From positions 6,483 through 70,482 of IMG/VR virus record IMGVR_UViG_3300036851_000339: a DNA stretch of 64,000 nt. One strand, 5' to 3'. Source of the DNA: a virus. The stretch's first letter is position 1; each line of letters opens with the position of its first letter. The translations under genes and the position numbers were made by a program. Under the pieces are notes generated by a model. It searched no databases, had not been told where the DNA came from, and saw only the letters and a list, made by a program, of their open reading frames with translations. Positions 1,929 to 53,152 of the stretch are shown here, piece after piece.

Positions 1929-3134
1929 ATGTCCAACTTCCTGATCTACACCAATAAACTCCGTCAATGGGTTTCTTCTCTTGCGCCAGAGCAGGCAGAA
2001 GACTTCATCAATGACGCTTGGCGTGACATAAGAGAGGCCAATGATAGTTGGTCTTTCCTCTTAGGCACGGAGTATTGGCTTGCTCCAGGAAGTATTAACC
2101 TGACTAACATAGGAGTTACTCAATTTAGTAACGTAGTAACATTAAATCATAGTGTTATCGTATCAATTGCTAACTTGAATAATCCTCCTATAACACAACG
2201 TCAACTCAGGTTTGGACTAAGTGGTGGACCTATATACGAAATAGCAGCCACTGATGTCCAGCAAGTGGGTGGAGGGACCATTAACTTAGGGACGGATGAT
2301 CTAATCATCTTGAGTGGCCCCTTCGATCCATCTCACGTAAATAGGCTGATAGTGGTGGCGGGAGCAGGACCGGGGGGCTCTGATCTCAACACCACTATTC
2401 TTGCCTATGTGAGTCCTACTCAAGTTCAGTTGGCTGTGAATGCCTCTACTAGTGTGGTAGCAGCGACCGTGACTTGGGGATCAACAATCACTCTTGCCAG
2501 AAACTTCAACGAGCAGACGAACCTCAACGCTAATGCCCTGCTCTATAGGGTCTACTACTCTCCTCTCACTATAGACTTCCAGCGACTCGATCATCTGACG
2601 GACCCCATCACTGGATATGAGTTTGGGTATGAGGTTTATTCGATTGATGATCTTGACAGAAAGGACCCTCAAAGATCTTCTGTCACTGAGCCATATGAGT
2701 TATACCTGCACCACTTCGACTCTCTGACTGGCCTACCTGTCTATGAGTTGTGGCCGGGTCCAACTATTGAGAGAGCATATGTCGTTACTTTCTGGAAGTT
2801 GGGGATGCCCTTCTCCGCTGATAGCGACAGTTTACCTCCTCAGATCCCTGAAAAACTTCTCCTTCTAAGAGCAAGACTCCTCGCCTATGAGTGGGGAGAG
2901 GTGAATGATTCTGATCCACGAAAGAGACAAAGCTACGCCAGCGCTAAAAACTATGTCAGGAACAAGTATTCCACTGAAGGCCAACCTGGAAGACCACTAG
3001 GCGAACTCGATCAGGCAATGAGAAAAGATGAGAACATCTTGATCCAGGCGAGATTGAGACCAAGAAGACCCGGATCGGGATGGCCAGTTGATAGTAACTT
3101 CCTACAACGACACGCCTTCCCACAAGGATGGTAA
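1929..3134 (+). CDS. Head-tail adaptor-like protein with inserted beta-rich domain
   Basis: N-terminal FINDAWRDI..WSFL helix and YELWPGPT motif typical of podovirus adaptors. Confidence 0.55.
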   Translation: MSNFLIYTNKLRQWVSSLAPEQAEDFINDAWRDIREANDSWSFLLGTEYWLAPGSINLTNIGVTQFSNVVTLNHSVIVSIANLNNPPITQRQLRFGLSGGPIYEIAATDVQQVGGGTINLGTDDLIILSGPFDPSHVNRLIVVAGAGPGGSDLNTTILAYVSPTQVQLAVNASTSVVAATVTWGSTITLARNFNEQTNLNANALLYRVYYSPLTIDFQRLDHLTDPITGYEFGYEVYSIDDLDRKDPQRSSVTEPYELYLHHFDSLTGLPVYELWPGPTIERAYVVTFWKLGMPFSADSDSLPPQIPEKLLLLRARLLAYEWGEVNDSDPRKRQSYASAKNYVRNKYSTEGQPGRPLGELDQAMRKDENILIQARLRPRRPGSGWPVDSNFLQRHAFPQGW

Positions 3135-42521: not shown

Positions 42522-43105
42522 TTAAACACCTCCATCCACACACTACAGGTTATTACCCTATCCAGCCTCGTCCTACAGTAGAGATGCTGGATAATTGAAA
42601 GAGCTTCAGCAGTAGTAGCTTCTGATGTGACTCCACTCTCGATCCCGACCATCACCCTTATGGATTGCTTCTGTTGGCCTGGTGTCTTCAGCAACTCATG
42701 AGCAAACTTTGTCATTGCTATCACATTCAAATAACGATCCCGCTGGAAGGCCCATACCCCAAGGGTTTCACGGGCATCGTTGATATAAGGGATGAAGTTT
42801 GTGATGCTCATCAACTTCCAATTCTGCCTCTTCACCCTCCCTATCAGTCCCCCAGCTAGGATGAACTCCCCTCTATCTCCCACACCCAGGGAGAGGGATG
42901 CCGCCCACTTCTTCCCCTCCCTCCACATCAAGGCCCTCACGTCCTCCATCCCAAAGAGGGCCATCGAATAGATAGGGATATGTCCATCATCTCTTCGGAA
43001 CCATCTTCCCGCGTAGGGGTAGTCTTTCTCTCTTAGCATTCTGAGGAGTCGCATCTGGGCTTCCTCAAGAGTTATATCAGGGCTATCTTTCATAGTAGCT
43101 CCCAT
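42518..43105 (-). CDS. Hypothetical protein downstream of the JAB gene
   Basis: Overlaps the end of the JAB gene; same operon. Confidence 0.55.
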   Translation of the reverse strand: MGATMKDSPDITLEEAQMRLLRMLREKDYPYAGRWFRRDDGHIPIYSMALFGMEDVRALMWREGKKWAASLSLGVGDRGEFILAGGLIGRVKRQNWKLMSITNFIPYINDARETLGVWAFQRDRYLNVIAMTKFAHELLKTPGQQKQSIRVMVGIESGVTSEATTAEALSIIQHLYCRTRLDRVITCSVWMEVFK

Positions 43106-44009
43106 ATAATTCTCTCCAATAATCCTCTATCTGTCCCGTCTCCTCCAGGAACTCTCTATACACCTCTTCCTTCTCCTTGTTGTTGTTACCCCAATATCCT
43201 GGCATCCCTACTCTATTTTTGTTACTCCCCTTACCTCCATTATATGTAACAACATAAGCCTTCTCAGGTTCAGGGAGTTCTGAGAGAATAGCCCCGCCAT
43301 CTGACCCAAAGGCTGCTCTATTATAATTCGAGGTAGTCTCCACTCCACAAGACGCCTTGTCCTTGTGAGAGTATGATCCAGCCCTATAACGCAGTATATT
43401 AGGGCAATCTCCCAAAGACTCAACCTTCGAAGTGATTGAAGGTCTCTCGATTTTATGGCTGAATGGCCAATCTTCTACCCCAAGAGGCATCAGATTCGCA
43501 TATGACACCCCCATCTCTCCACACTCTAGATCATAATTAAGGATGGCCTCATAGCTGAAGCCTAATAATTTCGACTCAACTTTAGAATCTGGAGTGGCCA
43601 CCACGATAGAGCTGGCGAAGTTGGAACAAATCCCTCCATCCGATAGATCTCCCCCATCTCCTTTCGCCTTGAGTGATCCAGAGAATCTCGCAGACATCAT
43701 ATGATGAGAGTGAATCCCACAAACCATCCTCTCCCTCACCCACTCAGGGAACATCTCATCGAGAGTGGGCTCATCTCCTTTATATGGCCTAACGTGGGAC
43801 CCTCTACGGATCTGGTTGGGTGGGGTCCAGAGCTCAGTAATAATGACATGAAGACCATTTTCATTTCGTTCACCCAACCCAACTGTCATCCACTCATCCT
43901 TATCCCAGATAGCTCCTGCAAGTTGGGCTATCAACTCTGGAGCGATCTCGATGAGCCCCTTTGTGGCTTTGACGACTGGGCAACTTACAACTTTCTCAAT
44001 CTCAATCAT
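43083..44009 (-). CDS. JAB/MPN+ metalloprotease (prokaryotic deubiquitinase-like)
   Basis: Catalytic Glu candidate (DEW); P.Q; GIHSHHMMSARFSG...D. Confidence 0.75.
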   Translation of the reverse strand: MIEIEKVVSCPVVKATKGLIEIAPELIAQLAGAIWDKDEWMTVGLGERNENGLHVIITELWTPPNQIRRGSHVRPYKGDEPTLDEMFPEWVRERMVCGIHSHHMMSARFSGSLKAKGDGGDLSDGGICSNFASSIVVATPDSKVESKLLGFSYEAILNYDLECGEMGVSYANLMPLGVEDWPFSHKIERPSITSKVESLGDCPNILRYRAGSYSHKDKASCGVETTSNYNRAAFGSDGGAILSELPEPEKAYVVTYNGGKGSNKNRVGMPGYWGNNNKEKEEVYREFLEETGQIEDYWRELYGSYYER

Positions 44010-46877: not shown

Positions 46878-47156
46878 TTACCAATATTTCTCCCTGTAAA
46901 CTCTGATGTGGGTTACTCCAATCGGGAGCATGTTCTTCCCTATTGCAATATCAACCCCTTTCTGAGCCACATTATCCCACTCCATCACGTTCGTAAGATG
47001 AACCTCACGAGCCTCATTTGGGCCAACTGAGCCATGTTTGTTGATGTAGTCCTGGATCTCTTGAGGAATGGCTATTCCCCACTCTTTCAGAGTATGATAG
47101 ATGTTACGAACTTTATCCGTGTGTTCATTGCCTGGGATTATTCCTACGACTTTCAT
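46878..47156 (-). CDS. Hypothetical protein
   Basis: LPIGVTHIRV C-terminal motif. Confidence 0.55.
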   Translation of the reverse strand: MKVVGIIPGNEHTDKVRNIYHTLKEWGIAIPQEIQDYINKHGSVGPNEAREVHLTNVMEWDNVAQKGVDIAIGKNMLPIGVTHIRVYREKYW

Positions 47157-47431
47157 CTGTAGTTGCCCTCCAGTTTCTTTTTGAGATTGTTGATATCTCT
47201 CTGAACCATTAGGATCTTATGCGTGGCCAGCGTCATGCATATTTCTTTGTTGGTTCTGGTCTTCTGTGTAACTATTGCATAAACCTGAGCGCCTTCTACA
47301 AACTCCAGGTCAGAATTGCTCATCGGAGTTGGCATAAGATTGGTAGAGCCATCTTTAACAGCTCTCCAAAACTGTTCCCTCTCCTCAGCTCGCTCAAGCG
47401 CCTCCATCTGTCTCTGTCTTTTTGACTTCAT
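47153..47431 (-). CDS. Hypothetical protein
   Basis: GGAGG RBS. Confidence 0.55.
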   Translation of the reverse strand: MKSKRQRQMEALERAEEREQFWRAVKDGSTNLMPTPMSNSDLEFVEGAQVYAIVTQKTRTNKEICMTLATHKILMVQRDINNLKKKLEGNYR

Positions 47432-47447
47432 CGACTTTCCTCCCGTG

Positions 47448-47612
47448 TTAATTGTCTATCCTAAAAATAAAATAGAAGTAGAAGATTCCTTCAAAACTCA
47501 AAACTGTTATGAATCTCCACCCCTCTTTGCCCAGTTCATTTATTTCAGCCTCTTCTAAAGGCTTTGAGCTTTTTACAATTTTGACTTCTCCATCCACATG
47601 GAAAACATACAT
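47448..47612 (-). CDS. 54-aa DUF4177-like protein (absent from the ORF track)
   Basis: INELGKEGWRFITV...FYFYF; GGAG RBS. Confidence 0.45.
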   Translation of the reverse strand: MYVFHVDGEVKIVKSSKPLEEAEINELGKEGWRFITVLSFEGIFYFYFIFRIDN

Positions 47613-47668
47613 CTTTTCTCCCTTCTACTCATTGGGTGATCCTGGTCTTACTATTCTCATTCTTGCCA

Positions 47669-47944
47669 TCAATCCTCCAATACATACTCTTCCACCGTTT
47701 TTGTTATCTCTTTTGTTACCTTTTTGGGAACATAGATAGCTCCATCTCTGAGAATCAATACACCATTCTTTGGCCATCTCTCCCATAGGTTAAAGGCGTG
47801 ATCTGCGGATGGACAAGGAAGTCCGCTCATGATGACTTTTGAGATCTTGGTATCATTGATGGTAGCCATGAGATCCTCTGCTGTTATATTTTGAACGTAC
47901 ATTCCATCTTCATCGTCATCATAGAGAATTTGGTATTTGGACAC
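47669..47944 (-). CDS. Hypothetical protein
   Basis: AGGAG RBS; GTG start. Confidence 0.55.
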   Translation of the reverse strand: MSKYQILYDDDEDGMYVQNITAEDLMATINDTKISKVIMSGLPCPSADHAFNLWERWPKNGVLILRDGAIYVPKKVTKEITKTVEEYVLED

Positions 47945-48229
47945 TGTTACTCCTTTCTACTAATTCCTTAATATTTGCTGGCGCAATAGCCTCCTCTTAT
48001 AAGAGGAGGCTTACGCAAAGTGGAGGCCCACCCTCCTCCCCAAGTATCCAGGTTTGTCCCCATTTCAGACCGCGAATCTTCTGAAGACTGGATACAGAGA
48101 CAGGGAGGAGGTGAGTCAAAAAAGAAAGACCAGACAGCCTCTCATGACATGAAACGTCCCTAGGGTTGGACACGACCAACGTTTCATACTGTCCTCACGG
48201 ATACAGCGACATGTAATCTGTCTGGTCTA

Positions 48230-48305
48230 TCGCTCTAGATGGAGTTGCACCATCATCTCTCTTCCAAACTCACCGGAAGTCGCTCTCCTATTAAGCTACA
48301 GAGCA
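48230..48305 (-). ncRNA. Atypical tRNA-like RNA with enlarged anticodon arm
   Basis: Acceptor TGCTCTG/TAGAGCG; D arm GCTT/GAGC; CTTCC-9 nt-GGAAG; T arm GATGG-TGCAACT-CCATC; no CCA. Confidence 0.6.
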
Positions 48306-48419
48306 GGAGGGATCGATCTGGCCTGCCTTAAAGGCAGGCGGTCACGAAGTGAAAGACCAAAACCTACTCTCTACTTCCATCCTCCCCCAGAAAATGGTTG
48401 TATTTTCAGTTTTGGTCTA

Positions 48420-48475
48420 TTGCTCGTATGGGAATCGAACCCATCTGGATGCATCACAGGGGCCTTCCACGAGCA
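48420..48475 (-). ncRNA. Truncated tRNA-like RNA (acceptor stem plus T arm)
   Basis: TGCTCGT/ACGAGCA stem; ATGGG-TTCGATT-CCCAT T arm; only 24 nt between them. Confidence 0.55.
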
Positions 48476-48728
48476 ACCTAAACCCGATCCCATTCAGAGA
48501 CCGGGGCCACCATCCAAGCAGGGTGGGTGGTGGGAGTTAAGGAGCTTCATGACTTCTCCCAGTGTACACCTTTAATAACTCCACTAATGAGATGGAATCT
48601 CCCTGCCATAAACTAGCGGGAGTCGTTGAAAGCAGAGCAATAAAAGGAGGCTGTTTTGATTGGAAAAGCAAATCCTCTTATATCTCCTAGAAGTCCTCAC
48701 GGATATTCCCGACTCCCATAAATCAAAA

Positions 48729-48800
48729 GGTCCACGATTAGACTCGAACTAATGACCTCTCCCTTAACTGGGAGCGCTCTGTCCTCTGAGCTACGTGGGC
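48729..48800 (-). tRNA. tRNA-like gene with non-canonical 6-nt anticodon loop (AGTTAA; Asn-like GTT)
   Basis: GCCCACG/CGTGGAC acceptor; GCTC/GAGC D stem; CTCCC/GGGAG stem; ATTAG-TTCGAGT-CTAAT T arm. Confidence 0.7.
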
Positions 48801-48807
48801 CAGAACT

Positions 48808-48987
48808 CTATCTCACGTTCCTATTTATAATTTTAGCCTTGACCCAATCCCACAACCTCAACACTCCAGCCCCTATAAAGACAGGAGTCATCAACACAGC
48901 CCAGGGCGTAACTATGTAGATGATCGTGAAGATGATGGGTTTTCTGAATGGGTCGAGATTGTCTAACCAGTTAAGCAGGGATTCCAT
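48808..48987 (-). CDS. Small membrane protein (59 aa)
   Basis: Hydrophobic IIFTIIYIVTPWAVLMTPVFIGAGVL segment; GAGG RBS. Confidence 0.45.
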   Translation of the reverse strand: MESLLNWLDNLDPFRKPIIFTIIYIVTPWAVLMTPVFIGAGVLRLWDWVKAKIINRNVR

Positions 48988-48992
48988 TGTTT

Positions 48993-49202
48993 CTACCTCA
49001 ACTTATAAACAGGTTTGTTGTTGTAAGGAATTATTCCCTTTATACCATAGATATCTAAATAATCCCCATCTTGTATACTCACAAAGAAGGAGTCGAACTC
49101 ATCTGCTCCCGGAATGTCTGACTTGATCTGCTCGACATCTTGTGAGTCGCTTAAGAATTGGAAATTATCTGGAATGTCTTTTACATATTCGATGTCTGCC
49201 AT
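48993..49202 (-). CDS. Hypothetical protein
   Basis: AGGAG RBS before ATG 49202. Confidence 0.55.
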   Translation of the reverse strand: MADIEYVKDIPDNFQFLSDSQDVEQIKSDIPGADEFDSFFVSIQDGDYLDIYGIKGIIPYNNKPVYKLR

Positions 49203-49232
49203 TTCGTTTTTTACTCCTTCTAGAAAATGTGA

Positions 49233-49307
49233 TGACCCAGGTTGGAATTGAACCAACGACCCTCGCTTTAGAAGAGCGATGCTCTAAATCCGCTGAGCTA
49301 CTGGACC
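49233..49307 (-). tRNA. tRNA-Arg (TCT)
   Basis: Canonical cloverleaf; TCGCT-CTTCTAA-AGCGA anticodon arm; GTTGG-TTCAATT-CCAAC T arm; no encoded CCA. Confidence 0.92.
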
Positions 49308-49313
49308 AAAAAA

Positions 49314-50327
49314 CTACTCCTCATCCTCCCTAAACGGTCTCGACGCTTCTGGATAGATCATCTTCCAGATTAACTTGGAGTAGTCTTTCTTGTCTAACAT
49401 GTTAAAGAGAATCGCTGGGTACTCGCAAGCGCTAGTGAAATATTGAGCGGTTGCTTTTCTATTTCCAAAATCAGCGAATTGGAGCCAGCATAGATCCTCA
49501 ATAGTTTTATACCTTGATCTGAGATCGTTCTCTGTAGAACGAACCCAATTATAGAACTCATCTGGCACTCTCTCAACTATTTCTTTCAATCCATCAGGAG
49601 TCTGGAGAGCTTCCCAGATGTGCCTCGCGCTCAGCCCTGTCAATAGGCTATGAAGGCGTTTGTATTCCGCGAATTTCATTTTCACCCGTTCACCAGATTC
49701 TGTGAATCGAAGAACGAATCCTTCTTTGTTGGGCTCTTCTAGGGCTGAGAGTTCGTCAAAGCCCTTTATACCCTCATATCGTTTAGCGATAGGAAAGCCT
49801 ATATCCTCAAGGGGTAGTTCTTTGCCTGTTGAGGTCTCTATGATCGCCAATAGAATGAGGTCTTCCATCTCGCCATAATCCACAACTATCCTATTAAGAG
49901 GGTGAATGATCTCGAAGAGATATGTGAGATCATGTCGGAACTCCACCTTCTTGTATTTCCTATCCAAGATATCGTTAGCAAACTCAGACTGCTCACTAGT
50001 GAAGCTCCCTCTTGTAGCTATGAATGGACGCTCACCTATAAAGTATAGAACTCCAAGTGACCCATCCAGCTTCTCATATACCTCAAAAGGGCCATTTGGC
50101 AAATTCCCCTTGAGCTGTTCTATGTTGAAGAATTTAGGGAATGGACGCGCTACTATATGTCCATCATCAGCTACAATCAACCCTCTACAGGCCATCGTCT
50201 CCTCTGTCCATCGCCAATCATATTGACATTTGTTTGAGTAATTGTAGATTGTGAGAGGAGCGGTGGGATGGCGGTGCTTATTTATGTAGCCAGCCTGGAC
50301 CTCCTCTTCTATCTTAAGCCAGTTCAA
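49314..50327 (-). CDS. RNA ligase 1 (T4 RnlA-like)
   Basis: CRGLI; ARPFPKFFN; motif I EKLDGSL; TRGSF; FEII; EGFV; KMK. Confidence 0.9.
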   Translation of the reverse strand: MNWLKIEEEVQAGYINKHRHPTAPLTIYNYSNKCQYDWRWTEETMACRGLIVADDGHIVARPFPKFFNIEQLKGNLPNGPFEVYEKLDGSLGVLYFIGERPFIATRGSFTSEQSEFANDILDRKYKKVEFRHDLTYLFEIIHPLNRIVVDYGEMEDLILLAIIETSTGKELPLEDIGFPIAKRYEGIKGFDELSALEEPNKEGFVLRFTESGERVKMKFAEYKRLHSLLTGLSARHIWEALQTPDGLKEIVERVPDEFYNWVRSTENDLRSRYKTIEDLCWLQFADFGNRKATAQYFTSACEYPAILFNMLDKKDYSKLIWKMIYPEASRPFREDEE

Positions 50328-50353
50328 GATGAGTCTCCTTTCTGAATTATAAA

Positions 50354-50701
50354 CTAAGAAACAATCGCCAATCCAGCAGTCTTCCTCAAATATTCAATCT
50401 CTTCCAACTCCCCTTCATCCAGATCAGCGGTGGGCTCCAGAGTGGGAGGAATAGCGTTAGGGAACATCAGCGGTCCTGCGTGAATCTGGACGATCTCTCT
50501 TCCTCCCCATATCACTGGACCAAAGGCGGTGTCGCGGGCATCAGTGAGGATTGCTCCGAATCGGACATCCGCGAGAATCTGATTATCTCCAAGTCCCTCC
50601 TCTTTCAGGCGTTGGACTATAAAATCAAGGTCATCTACTGTCATTTGTTTAATCCTCGTGGCAAGGAGCCACGGTTCGGAAGTTTTATTTGTGGTATTCA
50701 T
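50354..50701 (-). CDS. Hypothetical protein
   Basis: 115-aa ORF. Confidence 0.5.
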   Translation of the reverse strand: MNTTNKTSEPWLLATRIKQMTVDDLDFIVQRLKEEGLGDNQILADVRFGAILTDARDTAFGPVIWGGREIVQIHAGPLMFPNAIPPTLEPTADLDEGELEEIEYLRKTAGLAIVS

Positions 50702-51313: not shown

Positions 51314-51847
51314 CTAAAAATTCAGCCATGCAAATTCTCCAAACAGTTTTTTGGCCTCTTTATCGTAAGCCTTAGCTGCATCAATTTCAGTGTCATATAC
51401 GCCAATATGTTTTTGATTCCCGCTTATGCAAATAGTGGCTACCCATCCATCTCTGCCCTTCGGTTTAGGTCCTCTAGAGCCTCCTCCCTTACTTCTAACT
51501 AGTCTAGATACTCCCTTATATTTGGAAGAGGTATTCTTTCTTGGTCTACGATTTTGACAATTCTGTTTTTGGGTAGAGAATCTAAGATTAGCTCTCCTAT
51601 TATCCAGGCCATCTCCGTTTATATGATCTACCTGCTGACCCGGTTTGGCGTCCATGATAAGTCTATGCATCGTCAGGCCGGATCTACGTCCAGAGCTATT
51701 TGTTATGTTAGCCCTTGCATAGATAGTTTGGTTGTCCTTTTTGGGAAACCAGTTATATTTGTTGACTAGTTGATAATATCTATCATCTACTAGAGCTACT
51801 AAATCATTTGTTAGGTATATCTTTTTCATGCTGAAATAATAACTCAT
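51314..51847 (-). CDS. HNH-AP2 homing endonuclease
   Basis: ALVDD; MHRLIM; VDHINGDGLDNRRANLR; SKYKGV; AAKAYD..A..LFGEFA.LNF. Confidence 0.92.
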   Translation of the reverse strand: MSYYFSMKKIYLTNDLVALVDDRYYQLVNKYNWFPKKDNQTIYARANITNSSGRRSGLTMHRLIMDAKPGQQVDHINGDGLDNRRANLRFSTQKQNCQNRRPRKNTSSKYKGVSRLVRSKGGGSRGPKPKGRDGWVATICISGNQKHIGVYDTEIDAAKAYDKEAKKLFGEFAWLNF

Positions 51848-52148: not shown

Positions 52149-53152
52149 CGAGCCAAGTGCTAATACATTCCATCCATCTTATTGAGTAAATAAGTAAGTA
52201 GATGGATCGAGGAGTGGATCGACACTCCTCACTAGAGTCATAAACTCCACTGAGCAATGTAGATTACCTTTTGATACTTGAAAAACGGTAATGGCTAAGG
52301 TATAAAAGAAATGGCGATGATCTCAAGGTAGAAACCACCGCCATTGTTAATGAAGTATTTCCAGGAGCATTATCCTACAAATGATTCTGAATAACAAGCG
52401 CCATTCCTTCATTTGTATGATTAGCTATAGACCTTCCTTCTGGTCTTCCCTATGTTCCAATGCTACAGAGATAAGGGCTGTAGTAGTTCCACCTAGTGAA
52501 ATAAGGCTCTCTTCGGAGTTTCCAGGCAACGGGCTGGTAGTAGATCCAGTTTTAACGCGGGGCAACGTCCTGGTCCACAAGTCACTGCAAATAAAAGCCT
52601 TAGCATAAGCTAAAAGCGTGGAAACATAGTATTAGCCATATCTGGAAATAACAAATAGAACCGCAGATCTCTCTTGTGTAATAGGTGACAAGGGATGGCC
52701 CCAGTCTACCTATAGATGTAAGAAGCTATACTTTAATAGGGCCACACCTTTCGATGTGGACTAATTAAAAGATAGCCCTTTTATGATGACTATAAAATTA
52801 TGATTGGGCTTTCGTCGCAGGAACGACGGTGGGGATCTTATTTCAGATCTTTTAGCTGAGTCGCTAGATTGAGAATTAGATCCAAATTCATCTTGCGGAT
52901 CTCTCTTATGGAGAAGAGACCACTATCCATGATTAGGTCAATCGCGTCTGAGAGAGCCATATAGTTCTCCAAATCTTCCCTCTATATGGAAGGAGTCTGC
53001 CTCTTGTTGTGAGTGTTCTCCAGAGATATTCATATCTATCTCTGGAGGAAATGATGGAGATATAGACTATCATATCTGATCCTCCATAAATAAAAAAAAG
53101 TAACACCCGATGTTACTCACGTGTTACTCTCCATGTTACTTCTTGTTACTAT

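What the first reader, a model, noticed from the sequence alone, without database searches (positions are those of the whole stretch)
48118..48475. Two homologous units, each a tRNA-like element followed by a long stem
Seen on the - strand: both tRNA-like elements start TGCTC and end GAGC(A/G)-A. Each is followed at once by TAGACCA, which opens a long helix closing with TGGTCTTTC: 10 bp at 48409-48418 with 48354-48363, and 11 bp at 48218-48228 with 48127-48137. The second helix has an inner 9-bp stem (48149-48157 with 48179-48187) and a U-run after it. One element has a 21-nt anticodon arm; the other lacks D and anticodon arms. Inference: the tRNA mimics may be processing signals (RNase P/Z) that release small structured RNAs, or decoys for anticodon nucleases. 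This may be an undescribed ncRNA class.
Basis: partly seen in the sequence, partly recalled or inferred. Interest (0 to 1): 0.72.

Follow-up and report, generated by a model that had tools for sequence, protein, structure and literature searches.

The report
Degenerate phage tRNAs with trailing hairpins
An uncultured soil phage keeps two worn-down tRNA genes, each followed at once by a long RNA hairpin, inside a 1.3-kb island of folded RNAs; they most likely serve as cutting marks for the host's tRNA-trimming enzymes, a known principle seen here in a new phage setting.

Summary
Both tRNA-like elements, both closing helices (10 and 11 perfect pairs), the inner 9-bp stem and the U-run lie at the stated coordinates. 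Helices anchored this way arise in at most 1 of 2000 flank shuffles.

The finding is part of a larger island (about 47985-49307, minus strand). It holds one normal tRNA-Arg, three tRNA relics with damaged or missing anticodon arms, and four or five long hairpins.

Four related uncultured phage genomes carry the same architecture at the same genome position. In this family, a stem starts within 3 nt of the discriminator base in 12 of 20 tRNA or tRNA-like elements, against 6 of 78 in unrelated loci. The base after the discriminator is U in 17 of 20. Stems differ between genomes by two-sided changes and none is broken. The hairpin sequences themselves are not conserved.

My best reading (about 0.5) is a tRNA-punctuated precursor: RNase P and RNase Z cut at intact acceptor/T-arm "top halves" and release stem-closed spacer RNAs.

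No RNA data exist. Element B passes Rfam's tRNA threshold; element A and the hairpins match no family. The anticodon-nuclease decoy idea is weak. This scan has noted similar anticodon-less phage tRNA relics on other DNA. I class it as a new variant of a known kind.

The parts
49233..49307 (-). Canonical tRNA-Arg(TCT), first RNA gene of the island. No CCA is encoded and U follows the discriminator.
   Evidence: Rfam RF00005 at 63.7 bits; ARAGORN. No anchored trailing helix (5 bp, p 0.595).
48729..48800 (-). tRNA relic with a 6-nt anticodon loop and one C.A mismatch in the acceptor stem; Asn(GUU)-like.
   Evidence: RF00005 at 45.4 bits with a 6-nt loop. ARAGORN calls it 'tRNA-???'. nhmmer's best match is the G001 tRNA-Asn, E 0.0027.
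48649..48728 (-). Weak stem-closed element after the 6-nt-loop tRNA. An 8-bp closing helix starts right after the discriminator. It contains one copy of the 13-mer that recurs in hairpin B.
   Evidence: Sequence; fold (z +0.21, not better than shuffles); repeat D3.
48476..48648 (-). Structured spacer with two or three hairpins, including a 9-bp hairpin at 48505-48483 just before element A.
   Evidence: Folds; terminator-like hit. By eye only: a 'UUAUGG...CCACC' hairpin type shared with G001 and G006.
48420..48475 (-). Element A: anticodon-less tRNA 'top half'. It has a 7-bp acceptor stem, a 24-nt linker, a 5-bp T stem with a UUCGAUU loop, and discriminator A.
   Evidence: 7 of 7 acceptor pairs, 5 of 5 T-stem pairs. 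Rfam gives only mascRNA at 17.9 bits and tRNA-Sec at 17.7 bits, E 4-6. Not called by ARAGORN.
48351..48419 (-). Hairpin A: U, then a 10-11 bp closing helix, a branched interior and a UUUC tail. No U-run follows.
   Evidence: I8; z -5.09; 1 of 2000 shuffles.
48306..48350 (-). 45-nt spacer with a 9-bp hairpin (48339-48321). It would form the 5' leader of element B.
   Evidence: I12.
48230..48305 (-). Element B: degenerate tRNA. The acceptor, D and T stems are intact. The anticodon arm is enlarged (9-11 nt loop region), the T loop is UGCAACU, and the discriminator is A.
   Evidence: RF00005 at 34.7 bits, above the gathering score of 29. Cloverleaf as the minimum-energy fold. Not called by ARAGORN.
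48124..48229 (-). Hairpin B: U, then an 11-bp closing helix, an inner 9-bp stem, a GUGA-capped side stem and a UUUC tail.
   Evidence: I2, I11, D3; z -3.14; 0 of 2000 shuffles.
48118..48123 (-). U6 run after hairpin B, a possible partial intrinsic terminator. Among the 10 hairpins folded, this is the only one I saw followed by a U-run.
   Evidence: terminator-like hit; hairpin tails.
48025..48115 (-). Hairpin C: long rod closed by a CCUCC-rich strand paired with a GGAGG-rich strand. It shares sub-motifs with hairpins A and B.
   Evidence: Fold z -3.26, 0 of 200 shuffles; repeats D1, D4, D6 and I10.
47988..48011 (-). Terminal 12-bp perfect palindromic hairpin that ends the island, just before the ribosome-binding site of the next gene (start at 47944).
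   Evidence: I3.

Best explanation
The two units belong to a tRNA-punctuated, multi-RNA precursor that is transcribed with the flanking leftward genes. The tRNA-like elements are former tRNA genes. Selection has kept their acceptor/T-arm 'top half' while the anticodon domain decayed (B) or was lost (A).

Inferred steps, none shown:
- Host RNase P cuts at the 5' end of each element (before 48475 and 48305).
- RNase Z cuts between the discriminator A and the following U (after 48420 and 48230), because no CCA is encoded.
- These cuts separate the transcript into defined pieces and release the stem-closed hairpins (about 69 and 106 nt) that fill the spacers.
- The hairpins act mainly in cis. They fold on their own and so insulate neighbouring tRNA-shaped folds, they cap the new ends against exonucleases, and hairpin B with its U-run also acts as a leaky terminator.

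What is shown is the anatomy, its non-random nature, its RNA-strand bias and its conservation in relatives.
For: 1. The anatomy is real and non-random.

2. Four related genomes were found through the terminase and a conserved JAB-like protein. They carry tRNA/tRNA-like plus hairpin arrays at the syntenic position.

3. Hairpins fill spacers exactly.
- In G006 the order is: Tyr-like tRNA, an 83-nt hairpin, tRNA-Asn, an 83-nt hairpin, an anticodon-less element, then a 105-nt hairpin, with only 3-4 unpaired nt before each next element.
- In G001 the hairpin after the His-like element ends 1 nt before the next tRNA-like element.

4. This is a family-wide feature. 12 of 20 tRNA/tRNA-like elements have a helix anchored within 3 nt of the discriminator at p <= 0.05 against their own shuffled flank.

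5. U follows the discriminator in 17 of 20 family elements (my count from the list). In the 68 control tRNAs C dominates (CAA 32, CTA 12, CCA 6). No family tRNA encodes CCA. This fits RNase Z maturation:
- RNase Z cuts 3' of the discriminator on CCA-less precursors, and RNase P can act on them first (passages in PMC1874595).
- A U was mapped at the 5' end of the released trailer (passage in PMC8549757).

6. Decay is selective. Among the relics seen (window A, B and the 6-nt-loop tRNA; G001 His-like, Ile-like and a 42-nt mini element; G006 mini element), the acceptor and T stems stay paired while the anticodon arm is lost or abnormal.

7. Comparison with the closest counterparts:
- A-type unit against the G006 unit: 22 pairs, 12 unchanged, 10 changed on both sides, 0 broken. 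In the closing helix 3 of 10 pairs changed on both sides.
- B-type unit against the G001 unit: 31 pairs, 13 unchanged, 2 one-sided, 16 two-sided, 0 broken. In the closing helix 5 of 10 pairs changed on both sides.

8. Structure is at RNA level on the tRNA strand. The sense strand folds better than the antisense in 10 of 10 hairpins, with 36 G.U pairs against 13.

9. [quoted passage not shown] That acceptor/T-arm minihelices suffice as RNase P substrates is recalled, not read here.

10. Seven of 7 small ORFs overlapping the island have no PHROG match.
Against: - There is no transcript or end-mapping evidence of any kind. Only one DNA run holds the sequence.
- Only five genomes carry such islands, all uncultured, and the host is unknown, so a host RNase Z is assumed.
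- Pair counts between two tRNA-shaped sequences look 'compensatory' whether or not they are orthologous. Only the closing helices and the junction motif bear on homology, and they rest on 10-11 nt of similarity.
- MAFFT could not align the units correctly, so no covariation statistic such as R-scape was possible.
- The hairpin after the 6-nt-loop tRNA folds no better than shuffles (z +0.21).
- The window's own normal tRNA-Arg has no anchored trailing helix.
- Both elements start with U1 rather than the usual G1.
- Element B has G in place of the usual second U of the T loop (my reading of the loop printed). Its tertiary tRNA fold is therefore uncertain.
- The control set for the U-after-discriminator and helix counts is mostly AT-rich phages unrelated to this family.
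Confidence: 0.5

Rival explanations
1. Neutral decay. A and B are dying tRNA pseudogenes from a local duplication, and the hairpins are ordinary tRNA trailers or terminators with no role of their own. The island is evolutionary debris that the phage tolerates.
For: - A and B share their first five and last four acceptor bases and the same junction, which suggests a recent duplication.
- Hairpin B is followed by a U6 run.
- Bacterial CCA-less tRNAs are often followed directly by a terminator hairpin. One example is a Lachnospiraceae tRNA-Met followed by a short hairpin that starts with the same heptamer and ends in a U-run (L164). Another is the B. subtilis trnSL-Ala1 figure legend in PMC1874595.
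- Hairpin sequences are not conserved between genomes.
Against: - Decay is not random. All 12 acceptor and T-stem pairs of A are intact although the whole D/anticodon region is gone, and the same state is kept in G006.
- Of the 10 hairpins folded, only hairpin B is followed by a U-run (the tails were read by eye). Most are 70-110 nt, branched, and abut the next tRNA.
- The anchored-helix frequency is 12 of 20 against 6 of 78 in unrelated loci.
- No closing-helix pair is broken in either comparison.
Confidence: 0.22
2. Counter-defence. The altered tRNAs are nuclease-resistant substitutes or decoys for host tRNA-targeting defence enzymes, working together with the neighbouring Rnl1-type RNA ligase.
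For: - An Rnl1-family RNA ligase (phrog_562 at 1.3e-62; Pfam RNA_lig_T4_1) lies directly upstream of the island.
- The odd tRNAs have changed anticodon loops: a 6-nt loop, 9-12-nt loops, and no U before a GUN-type anticodon in the three I read by eye.
- Phage tRNAs with anticodon-loop changes that evade anticodon nucleases are described (abstracts of PMC10264068, PMC11464382 and PMC11555353 in the listing).
- Colicin E5 targets Tyr, His, Asn and Asp tRNAs through a UQU loop motif (abstract of PMC1635277).
Against: - Element A has no anticodon arm at all.
- The anticodon domain is the least conserved part across the family.
- The ligase is present in 1 of 5 related genomes.
- No kinase/phosphatase partner was found in the window's genome (AAA_33: 0 hits in G000).
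- Loops of 6 or 9-12 nt are unlikely to decode.
- The trailing hairpins are not explained by this reading.
Confidence: 0.12
3. The hairpins are the payload. They are trans-acting small RNAs or protein-binding RNAs, and the tRNA-like elements exist only to release them, as in herpesvirus TMERs.
For: - The architecture matches: a tRNA-like element followed by one or two hairpins, cut by tRNase Z (passage in PMC4838037).
- Hairpins A, B and C fold far better than shuffles.
- Sub-motifs are repeated within the island, for example an exact 13-mer with a GUGA loop at two places.
Against: - No primary-sequence conservation of any hairpin between related genomes (best nhmmer E 0.45-3.3). No conserved seed or loop motif was found.
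- Normal tRNAs carry the same kind of hairpin.
- Bacteria lack the Dicer pathway that gives TMER hairpins their function.
Confidence: 0.12
4. DNA-level element: a replication origin, a packaging site, or a small mobile element that inserts at tRNA 3' ends.
For: - The stretch is ORF-poor and rich in inverted repeats.
- Within-genome sharing of stem motifs is what a spreading element would give.
Against: - The strand bias of folding and of G.U pairs points to RNA (10 of 10 hairpins).
- All elements lie on the transcribed strand of the surrounding operon.
- UAGACCA is not over-represented in the window (5 matches against 9.2 expected).
- No transposase or replication-initiator gene was identified among the neighbours I scanned.
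Confidence: 0.04

Closest known systems
t-elements of plant mitochondria and the mitochondrial tRNA-punctuation principle (Forner et al. 2007, PMC1920247; abstract read)
   Same: tRNA-like structures that no longer decode sit between other RNAs and are proposed to act as cis-signals for RNase P and/or RNase Z cuts that form transcript ends. Stem-loops are discussed there as accompanying cis-elements.
   Different: Those are organellar and flank mRNAs, and their ends were mapped experimentally. Here the setting is a bacteriophage, the flanked pieces are long hairpins and other tRNAs, and nothing has been mapped.
tRNA-miRNA-encoded RNAs (TMERs) of murine gammaherpesvirus 68 (passage in PMC4838037)
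   Same: Both are viral. Both have a tRNA-like element followed directly by hairpins, and in TMERs tRNase Z separates the two. Several units lie in a row.
   Different: TMERs are Pol III units of a eukaryotic virus, and their hairpins are pre-miRNAs finished by Dicer. Neither applies in bacteria.
mascRNA/menRNA at the 3' ends of MALAT1/NEAT1 (Rfam RF01684)
   Same: A reduced tRNA-like element used as an RNase P/Z handle. It is the best non-tRNA Rfam model on element A.
   Different: The score is 17.9 bits against a gathering score of 42.5 (E 4.1), so A is not a member. mascRNA is a vertebrate nuclear RNA.
CCA-less bacterial tRNA genes matured by RNase Z, often with a hairpin right after the discriminator (B. 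subtilis; passages in PMC1874595, and PMC8549757)
   Same: No encoded CCA, U right after the discriminator, a stem-loop starting 1-2 nt later, and RNase P able to act before RNase Z.
   Different: Those are working tRNAs with short terminator hairpins. Here the tRNA parts are degenerate, and the hairpins are 70-110 nt, branched and mostly lack a U-run.
Phage T4 tRNA cluster with dimeric precursors and co-encoded stable RNAs
   Same: A phage tRNA operon processed by RNase P, in which several tRNAs lack encoded CCA (passages in PMC11143913). From memory, not read here: T4 also encodes two stable RNAs of unknown function in that cluster.
   Different: No sequence or Rfam relation was found. The T4 tRNAs are functional, and no anticodon-less elements are described there to my knowledge.
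Bacterial and phage Y RNAs (YrlA) with a tRNA-like domain (PMC4201824; passages read)
   Same: Non-coding RNAs that combine a long stem with a tRNA-like module. One of them is cut by RNase P and receives CCA.
   Different: In YrlA the tRNA-like module sits inside the stem and the RNA is encoded next to Ro60. No TROVE/Ro60 gene was found in 0 of 5 genomes, and no Y RNA family hit appeared at E <= 10.

Membership tests
tRNA (Rfam RF00005), element B | Covariance-model score at or above the gathering score (29 bits) | tested here: met
   34.7 bits, E 9e-5, in the focused search. It was not listed in the whole-window gathering run and was not called by ARAGORN.
tRNA (functional decoder), element B | 5-bp anticodon stem with a 7-nt loop that has U before the anticodon and a purine after it; canonical T loop | tested here: not met
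   The loop region is 9-11 nt, or a 7-bp stem with a 5-nt loop in the minimum-energy fold. The T loop is UGCAACU.
tRNA (Rfam RF00005), element A | Score at or above the gathering score; D and anticodon arms present | tested here: not met
   No RF00005 hit at E <= 10. The only hits are tRNA-Sec at 17.7 bits and mascRNA at 17.9 bits. A 24-nt linker replaces both arms.
mascRNA-menRNA (RF01684), element A | Score at or above 42.5 bits | tested here: not met
   17.9 bits, E 4.1.
tRNA-like processing handle (t-element type; a functional class) | Intact acceptor stem stacked on an intact T arm, discriminator present | tested here: met
   A: 7 of 7 acceptor and 5 of 5 T-stem pairs. B: 7 of 7 (two G.U) and 5 of 5.
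tRNA-like processing handle (t-element type; a functional class) | Transcript ends mapped at the predicted RNase P and RNase Z sites | not testable with these tools
   No RNA run holds the sequence. The host is unknown.
Intrinsic terminator | Stem directly followed by a U-run | tested here: inconclusive
   Hairpin B is followed by UUUC plus U6. Hairpin A and the hairpins read in relatives have no U-run.
Y RNA / YrlA | Encoded next to a Ro60 (TROVE) gene; match to a Y RNA covariance model | tested here: not met
   TROVE was found in 0 of 5 genomes. No Y RNA family appeared among 12 matches at E <= 10.
tmRNA | tRNA-like domain split around a tag-encoding region | tested here: not met
   ARAGORN finds no tmRNA in the window. 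No tmRNA family hit.
T4-type tRNA repair module (Rnl1 with Pnkp) | RNA ligase together with a polynucleotide kinase-phosphatase, conserved beside the tRNAs | tested here: not met
   The ligase is present in 1 of 5 genomes. AAA_33 kinase-like hits: none in G000, one in G003.

The most novel reading that the evidence does not exclude
The anticodon-less and loop-altered tRNA relics are matured by RNase P, RNase Z and the CCA-adding enzyme into stable CCA-ended tRNA 'top halves'. These would act in trans as sponges or decoys for host factors that read the acceptor end of tRNAs, such as defence toxins that modify or cut the tRNA 3' end, or tRNA-processing and quality-control enzymes. The released stem-closed hairpins would be a second set of phage small RNAs. 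That would make the island a dedicated phage small-RNA factory using tRNA punctuation, a strategy so far known from mitochondria and one herpesvirus.
Probability: 0.12. Interest if true: 0.75.

Novelty: new variant of a known kind. Interest (0 to 1): 0.45.

Why it matters
If the predicted cuts occur, this would be a bacteriophage use of the tRNA-punctuation principle. Non-decoding tRNA top halves would be kept purely as handles for host RNase P and RNase Z, organising a multi-RNA transcript.

It would also help explain why phage genomes so often carry 'odd' or low-scoring tRNA genes that annotation pipelines call pseudogenes. It would give a concrete, testable set of cleavage sites.

It matters less as a one-off. 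The element is known from five uncultured genomes, has no expression data, and the scan has already met several similar anticodon-less phage tRNA relics elsewhere.

Tried and rejected
- DNA similarity. blastn of 47950-49320 against 50,697 phage records matched only the tRNA-Arg. blastn against the 77 RNA-ligase loci gave one tRNA hit. blastn against five related records gave nothing. nhmmer of ten island pieces against the relatives gave no hairpin hit better than E 0.45.\n- Pattern scans. The junction motif in viral contigs gave 5 chance hits in coding-looking DNA. The T-arm-plus-junction pattern gave G006 plus 2 unrelated hits in viral contigs. In genome contigs it gave 8 hits that by eye are ordinary bacterial tRNA genes. 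An 18-mer from another conserved RNA gave only G003, G006 and one chance hit.\n- Relatives. The closest RNA-ligase locus (75% identity) is not syntenic and has no tRNAs. The metagenome scan with the JAB-like protein gave 18 loci, none with a syntenic island. The wider terminase search added no island-bearing genome. The nearest isolates, Tunturiibacter phages (29.5% terminase identity), have no tRNA hit.\n- Expression. No RNA holder was listed; one DNA run of a soil metagenome holds the sequence. Read laying was not used.\n- Alignment. MAFFT misplaced the acceptor strands and closing helices. I therefore built no covariance model and ran no count of structure pairs. Pairs were instead counted by coordinates.\n- Coding reading. 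Seven of 7 small ORFs inside the island have no PHROG match.\n- Readings rejected. Y RNA, tmRNA, GOLLD/ROOL-type large RNAs and self-cleaving ribozymes: no Rfam hit at E <= 10 in 47000-50500, and no Ro60 gene.\n- Literature. Five searches listed no paper describing anticodon-less tRNA-like elements with trailing hairpins in phages. The library lacks most subscription journals. Pellegrini et al. 2003 was not held.
Full report
**What the window is.** The window is bases 6483-70482 of a 70,482-bp virus record with direct terminal repeats. The only sequencing run that holds the region is a soil metagenome DNA run. The nearest isolated phages, two Tunturiibacter (Acidobacteriota) phages, share only 29.5% terminase identity and have no tRNA hit. 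The host is therefore unknown. All genes around the finding lie on the minus strand.

**Checking the observation.** Every stated feature is present on the minus strand at the stated coordinates.
- Element A is 48475->48420 and element B is 48305->48230. Both start UGCUC and end GAGC(A/G)-A. Both are followed by UAGACCA, and the helices close with UGGUCUUUC.
- The repeat finder reports the helices independently: I8 (10 nt, 100%), I2 (14 nt, 93%, perfect core 11 bp) and I11 (9 nt, 100%). It also reports the shared junctions as direct repeats D7 and D9.
- A Watson-Crick helix this long that starts within 2 nt of the discriminator occurred in 1 of 2000 (A) and 0 of 2000 (B) flank shuffles.
- Hairpin A folds with z -5.09 and hairpin B with z -3.14.
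- Element B's minimum-energy fold is a cloverleaf with an abnormal anticodon arm.
- Element A is a perfect 7-bp acceptor plus 5-bp T arm joined by a 24-nt linker.

**What the databases say.**
- ARAGORN finds only a tRNA-Arg (49231-49308) and an unassignable tRNA at 48728-48801.
- Rfam in gathering mode on the whole window lists only the tRNA-Arg.
- The focused, more permissive search lists three tRNA hits above the gathering score: 63.7 bits for Arg, 45.4 bits for a tRNA with a 6-nt anticodon loop at 48729-48800, and 34.7 bits for element B. Over element A it gives only insignificant mascRNA (17.9 bits) and tRNA-Sec (17.7 bits) hits. Nothing matches the hairpins.
- So B is formally a degenerate tRNA gene, and A is a tRNA top half that no family model accepts.

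**The finding is part of a larger island.** From the tRNA-Arg (49307) to a terminal palindromic hairpin (47988) the strand carries, in this order:
1. tRNA-Arg.
2. Two small genes, one matching DUF6839 and phrog_21991.
3. The 6-nt-loop tRNA.
4. A weak stem-closed element.
5. A structured spacer.
6. Element A and hairpin A.
7. A 45-nt spacer with a small hairpin.
8. Element B and hairpin B with the U-run.
9. Hairpin C.
10. The terminal hairpin.

The hairpins share sub-motifs, for example an exact 13-mer with a GUGA loop at two places (D3) and repeats D1, D4 and D6, so the island grew by internal duplication. Seven of 7 small ORFs inside it have no PHROG match.

**Relatives.** DNA searches found nothing beyond the tRNA-Arg. 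Protein searches with the terminase and with a conserved JAB-like protein 4-5 kb downstream found four genomes with a comparable island at the syntenic place. They are G001 (66.8 kb), G002 (65.9 kb), G003 (a 14.7-kb fragment) and G006 (70.8 kb, terminal repeats). Wider scans of viral, metagenome and genome collections added none.

**What the relatives show.**
- In G006 the plus strand reads: Tyr-like tRNA, an 83-nt hairpin, tRNA-Asn, an 83-nt hairpin, a 54-nt anticodon-less element, then a 105-nt hairpin. Only 3-4 unpaired bases precede each next element.
- The G006 anticodon-less element is followed by A|UAGGCCAAACG. Element A is followed by A|UAGACCAAAAC.
- In G001 a His-like element with a 12-nt anticodon loop region is followed by AUAGGACAAGG..., which opens a long rod. 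The rod ends 1 nt before the next, also degenerate, tRNA-like element.
- G003 has a tRNA-Tyr followed by UAGGCUAUG....
- G001's second tRNA cluster has Arg and Pro tRNAs followed by UAGGAUAGG stems, and a 42-nt anticodon-less element.
- The trailing hairpin is therefore a family-wide feature of tRNA spacers, carried by working tRNAs as well as by relics.

**Numbers.**
- Using one detector for all sequences (T arm plus 7-bp acceptor), 12 of 20 family elements have a helix anchored within 3 nt of the discriminator at p <= 0.05 against their own shuffled flank. One antisense false hit in L102 was dropped before the family count.
- UAG directly follows the discriminator in 4 of 21 family rows, which includes that false hit, against 0 of 68 controls.
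- By my count of the same list, U follows the discriminator in 17 of 20 family elements. Controls mostly have C.
- Sense strands fold better than antisense strands in 10 of 10 hairpins, with 36 against 13 G.U pairs. The structures are therefore RNA-level and on the tRNA strand.
- Coordinate-based comparison, A-type unit against the G006 unit: 22 pairs, 12 unchanged, 10 changed on both sides, none broken. The closing helix has 7 unchanged and 3 two-sided.
- Coordinate-based comparison, B-type unit against the G001 unit: 31 pairs, 13 unchanged, 2 one-sided, 16 two-sided, none broken. The closing helix has 5 unchanged and 5 two-sided.
- Caveat: any two tRNA-shaped sequences give 'compensatory' counts in the cloverleaf stems. 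Only the closing helices and the junction bear on homology, and two sequences per type allow no statistic.
- The hairpin interiors are not alignable, and nhmmer finds no hairpin similarity between genomes.

**Interpretation.** Three things are conserved: the acceptor/T-arm top half, the absence of encoded CCA with U after the discriminator, and a self-contained stem that starts 1-2 nt later and ends a few nt before the next element. The anticodon domain and the hairpin sequence are not conserved.
- The top half is the part that RNase P, RNase Z and the CCA-adding enzyme read. A seven-pair acceptor stem is called a major RNase P determinant in PMC4201824.
- RNase Z cuts CCA-less precursors 3' of the discriminator, and RNase P can act on them first (PMC1874595). 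A U was mapped at the 5' end of the released trailer (PMC8549757).
- The preference of RNase Z for a U at that place is recalled from Pellegrini et al. 2003, which was not held.
- I therefore read the island as a tRNA-punctuated precursor. Cuts at the relics separate the transcript, and the hairpins are released as stem-closed spacer RNAs that mainly insulate folds and cap ends. Hairpin B doubles as a leaky terminator.
- All cleavage steps are inferred.

**Rivals.**
- Neutral decay explains the duplication and the U-run. It does not explain the selective survival of all 12 top-half pairs in A and in its G006 counterpart, or the family-wide anchored stems.
- The counter-defence reading has some support. 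An Rnl1-type ligase lies directly upstream, the anticodon loops are altered, and phage tRNAs that evade anticodon nucleases are documented (abstracts listed).
- Against the counter-defence reading: A has no anticodon arm, the ligase occurs in only 1 of 5 genomes, and the anticodon region is the least conserved part.
- The 'hairpins are the payload' reading mirrors herpesvirus TMERs. It lacks any conserved hairpin sequence.
- DNA-level roles are contradicted by the strand bias.
- Y RNA, tmRNA and the large ornate phage RNAs are excluded by Rfam and by the lack of Ro60.

**Comparison with what is known, and novelty.**
- The principle is known from plant mitochondrial t-elements (abstract of PMC1920247), from mascRNA, from TMERs and from dicistronic tRNA-sRNA precursors in Nanoarchaeum (abstract of PMC3491384).
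- RNase P processing of phage T4 tRNA precursors, some lacking CCA, is classical (passages in PMC11143913).
- Five literature searches listed no description of anticodon-less tRNA relics with trailing hairpins in phages, within a library that lacks most subscription journals.
- Earlier notes of this scan report similar anticodon-less phage tRNA top halves and stem-closed tRNA spacers on other, unrelated DNA. These are unverified AI notes. They gave me the t-element and Nanoarchaeum leads, and they show that the theme recurs.
- I file the finding as a new variant of a known kind. It is of moderate interest, and its value depends on end-mapping experiments.

Noticed in passing
window 48729-48800 (-): tRNA with a 6-nt anticodon loop and one C.A mismatch in the acceptor stem. 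ARAGORN cannot assign it. Its nearest match is the G001 tRNA-Asn(GTT) (nhmmer E 0.0027). It looks like an Asn tRNA that lost one loop base.
   Followed up: partly
window 49314-50327 (-): Rnl1-family RNA ligase (phrog_562 at 1.3e-62; Pfam RNA_lig_T4_1) directly upstream of the tRNA-Arg. It is present in only 1 of 5 related genomes, and its closest homologue (75% identity, L002) sits in an unrelated gene context, so it is probably a mobile accessory gene.
   Followed up: partly
L093 about 2607-2700 and L107 about 2776-2867: A roughly 94-nt block conserved between G003 and G006 (75% identity), with two stems changed on both sides. No Rfam hit at E <= 0.5-1. It is probably another undescribed structured RNA of this phage group. 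The window has no clear copy.
   Followed up: partly
window about 48611->48530 (-); L090 about 995->905 (-); L107 about 2436-2500 (+): Hairpins that open just after 'UUAUGG' and close just before 'CCACC' recur in three genomes, and several hairpins in G006 are separated by 'UUUAU'. I saw this by eye only. The AU-rich linkers might be RNase E-type sites.
   Followed up: no
L102 and L103 (G001): The octamer AGGATAGG is strongly over-represented across G001 (9 matches against 1.06 expected in L102; 7 against 1.21 in L103). It forms many of that genome's hairpin stems, including those after tRNA-Arg and tRNA-Pro.
   Followed up: partly
L107 2210-2263 (+): The anticodon-less element of G006 has a G.U wobble at the third acceptor pair and discriminator A, which are the alanine-identity features (that assignment is recalled). 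Window element A does not share this.
   Followed up: no
L099 1501-1572 (-) (G002): tRNA with a CTA anticodon (ARAGORN labels it 'Pyl'; Rfam 44.2 bits), followed by a short hairpin. It is a possible amber-suppressor-type tRNA in a relative.
   Followed up: no
G000:C1:3908-3966 (-), outside the window (L100 1501-1559): Truncated tRNA (27 bits, below the cut-off) whose T arm is replaced by another hairpin. An ORF starts about 120 nt downstream; by eye it might be a recombinase, which I did not test.
   Followed up: no
L149/L150 (G011 52329-52442 and 52753-52860): A distant relative (terminase 22% identity) has two tRNA hits of 108-114 nt, far longer than normal. They may hold insertions or introns.
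   Followed up: no
window 43083-44009 (-): A 308-aa protein conserved in G001 and G002 with an invariant HSHH motif. From memory this resembles JAB/MPN metalloproteases, but there is no Pfam or PHROG hit. I used it as the synteny anchor.
   Followed up: partly
window 51314-51847 (-): HNH endonuclease (phrog_99 at 1.8e-36), 2 kb upstream of the island.
   Followed up: no
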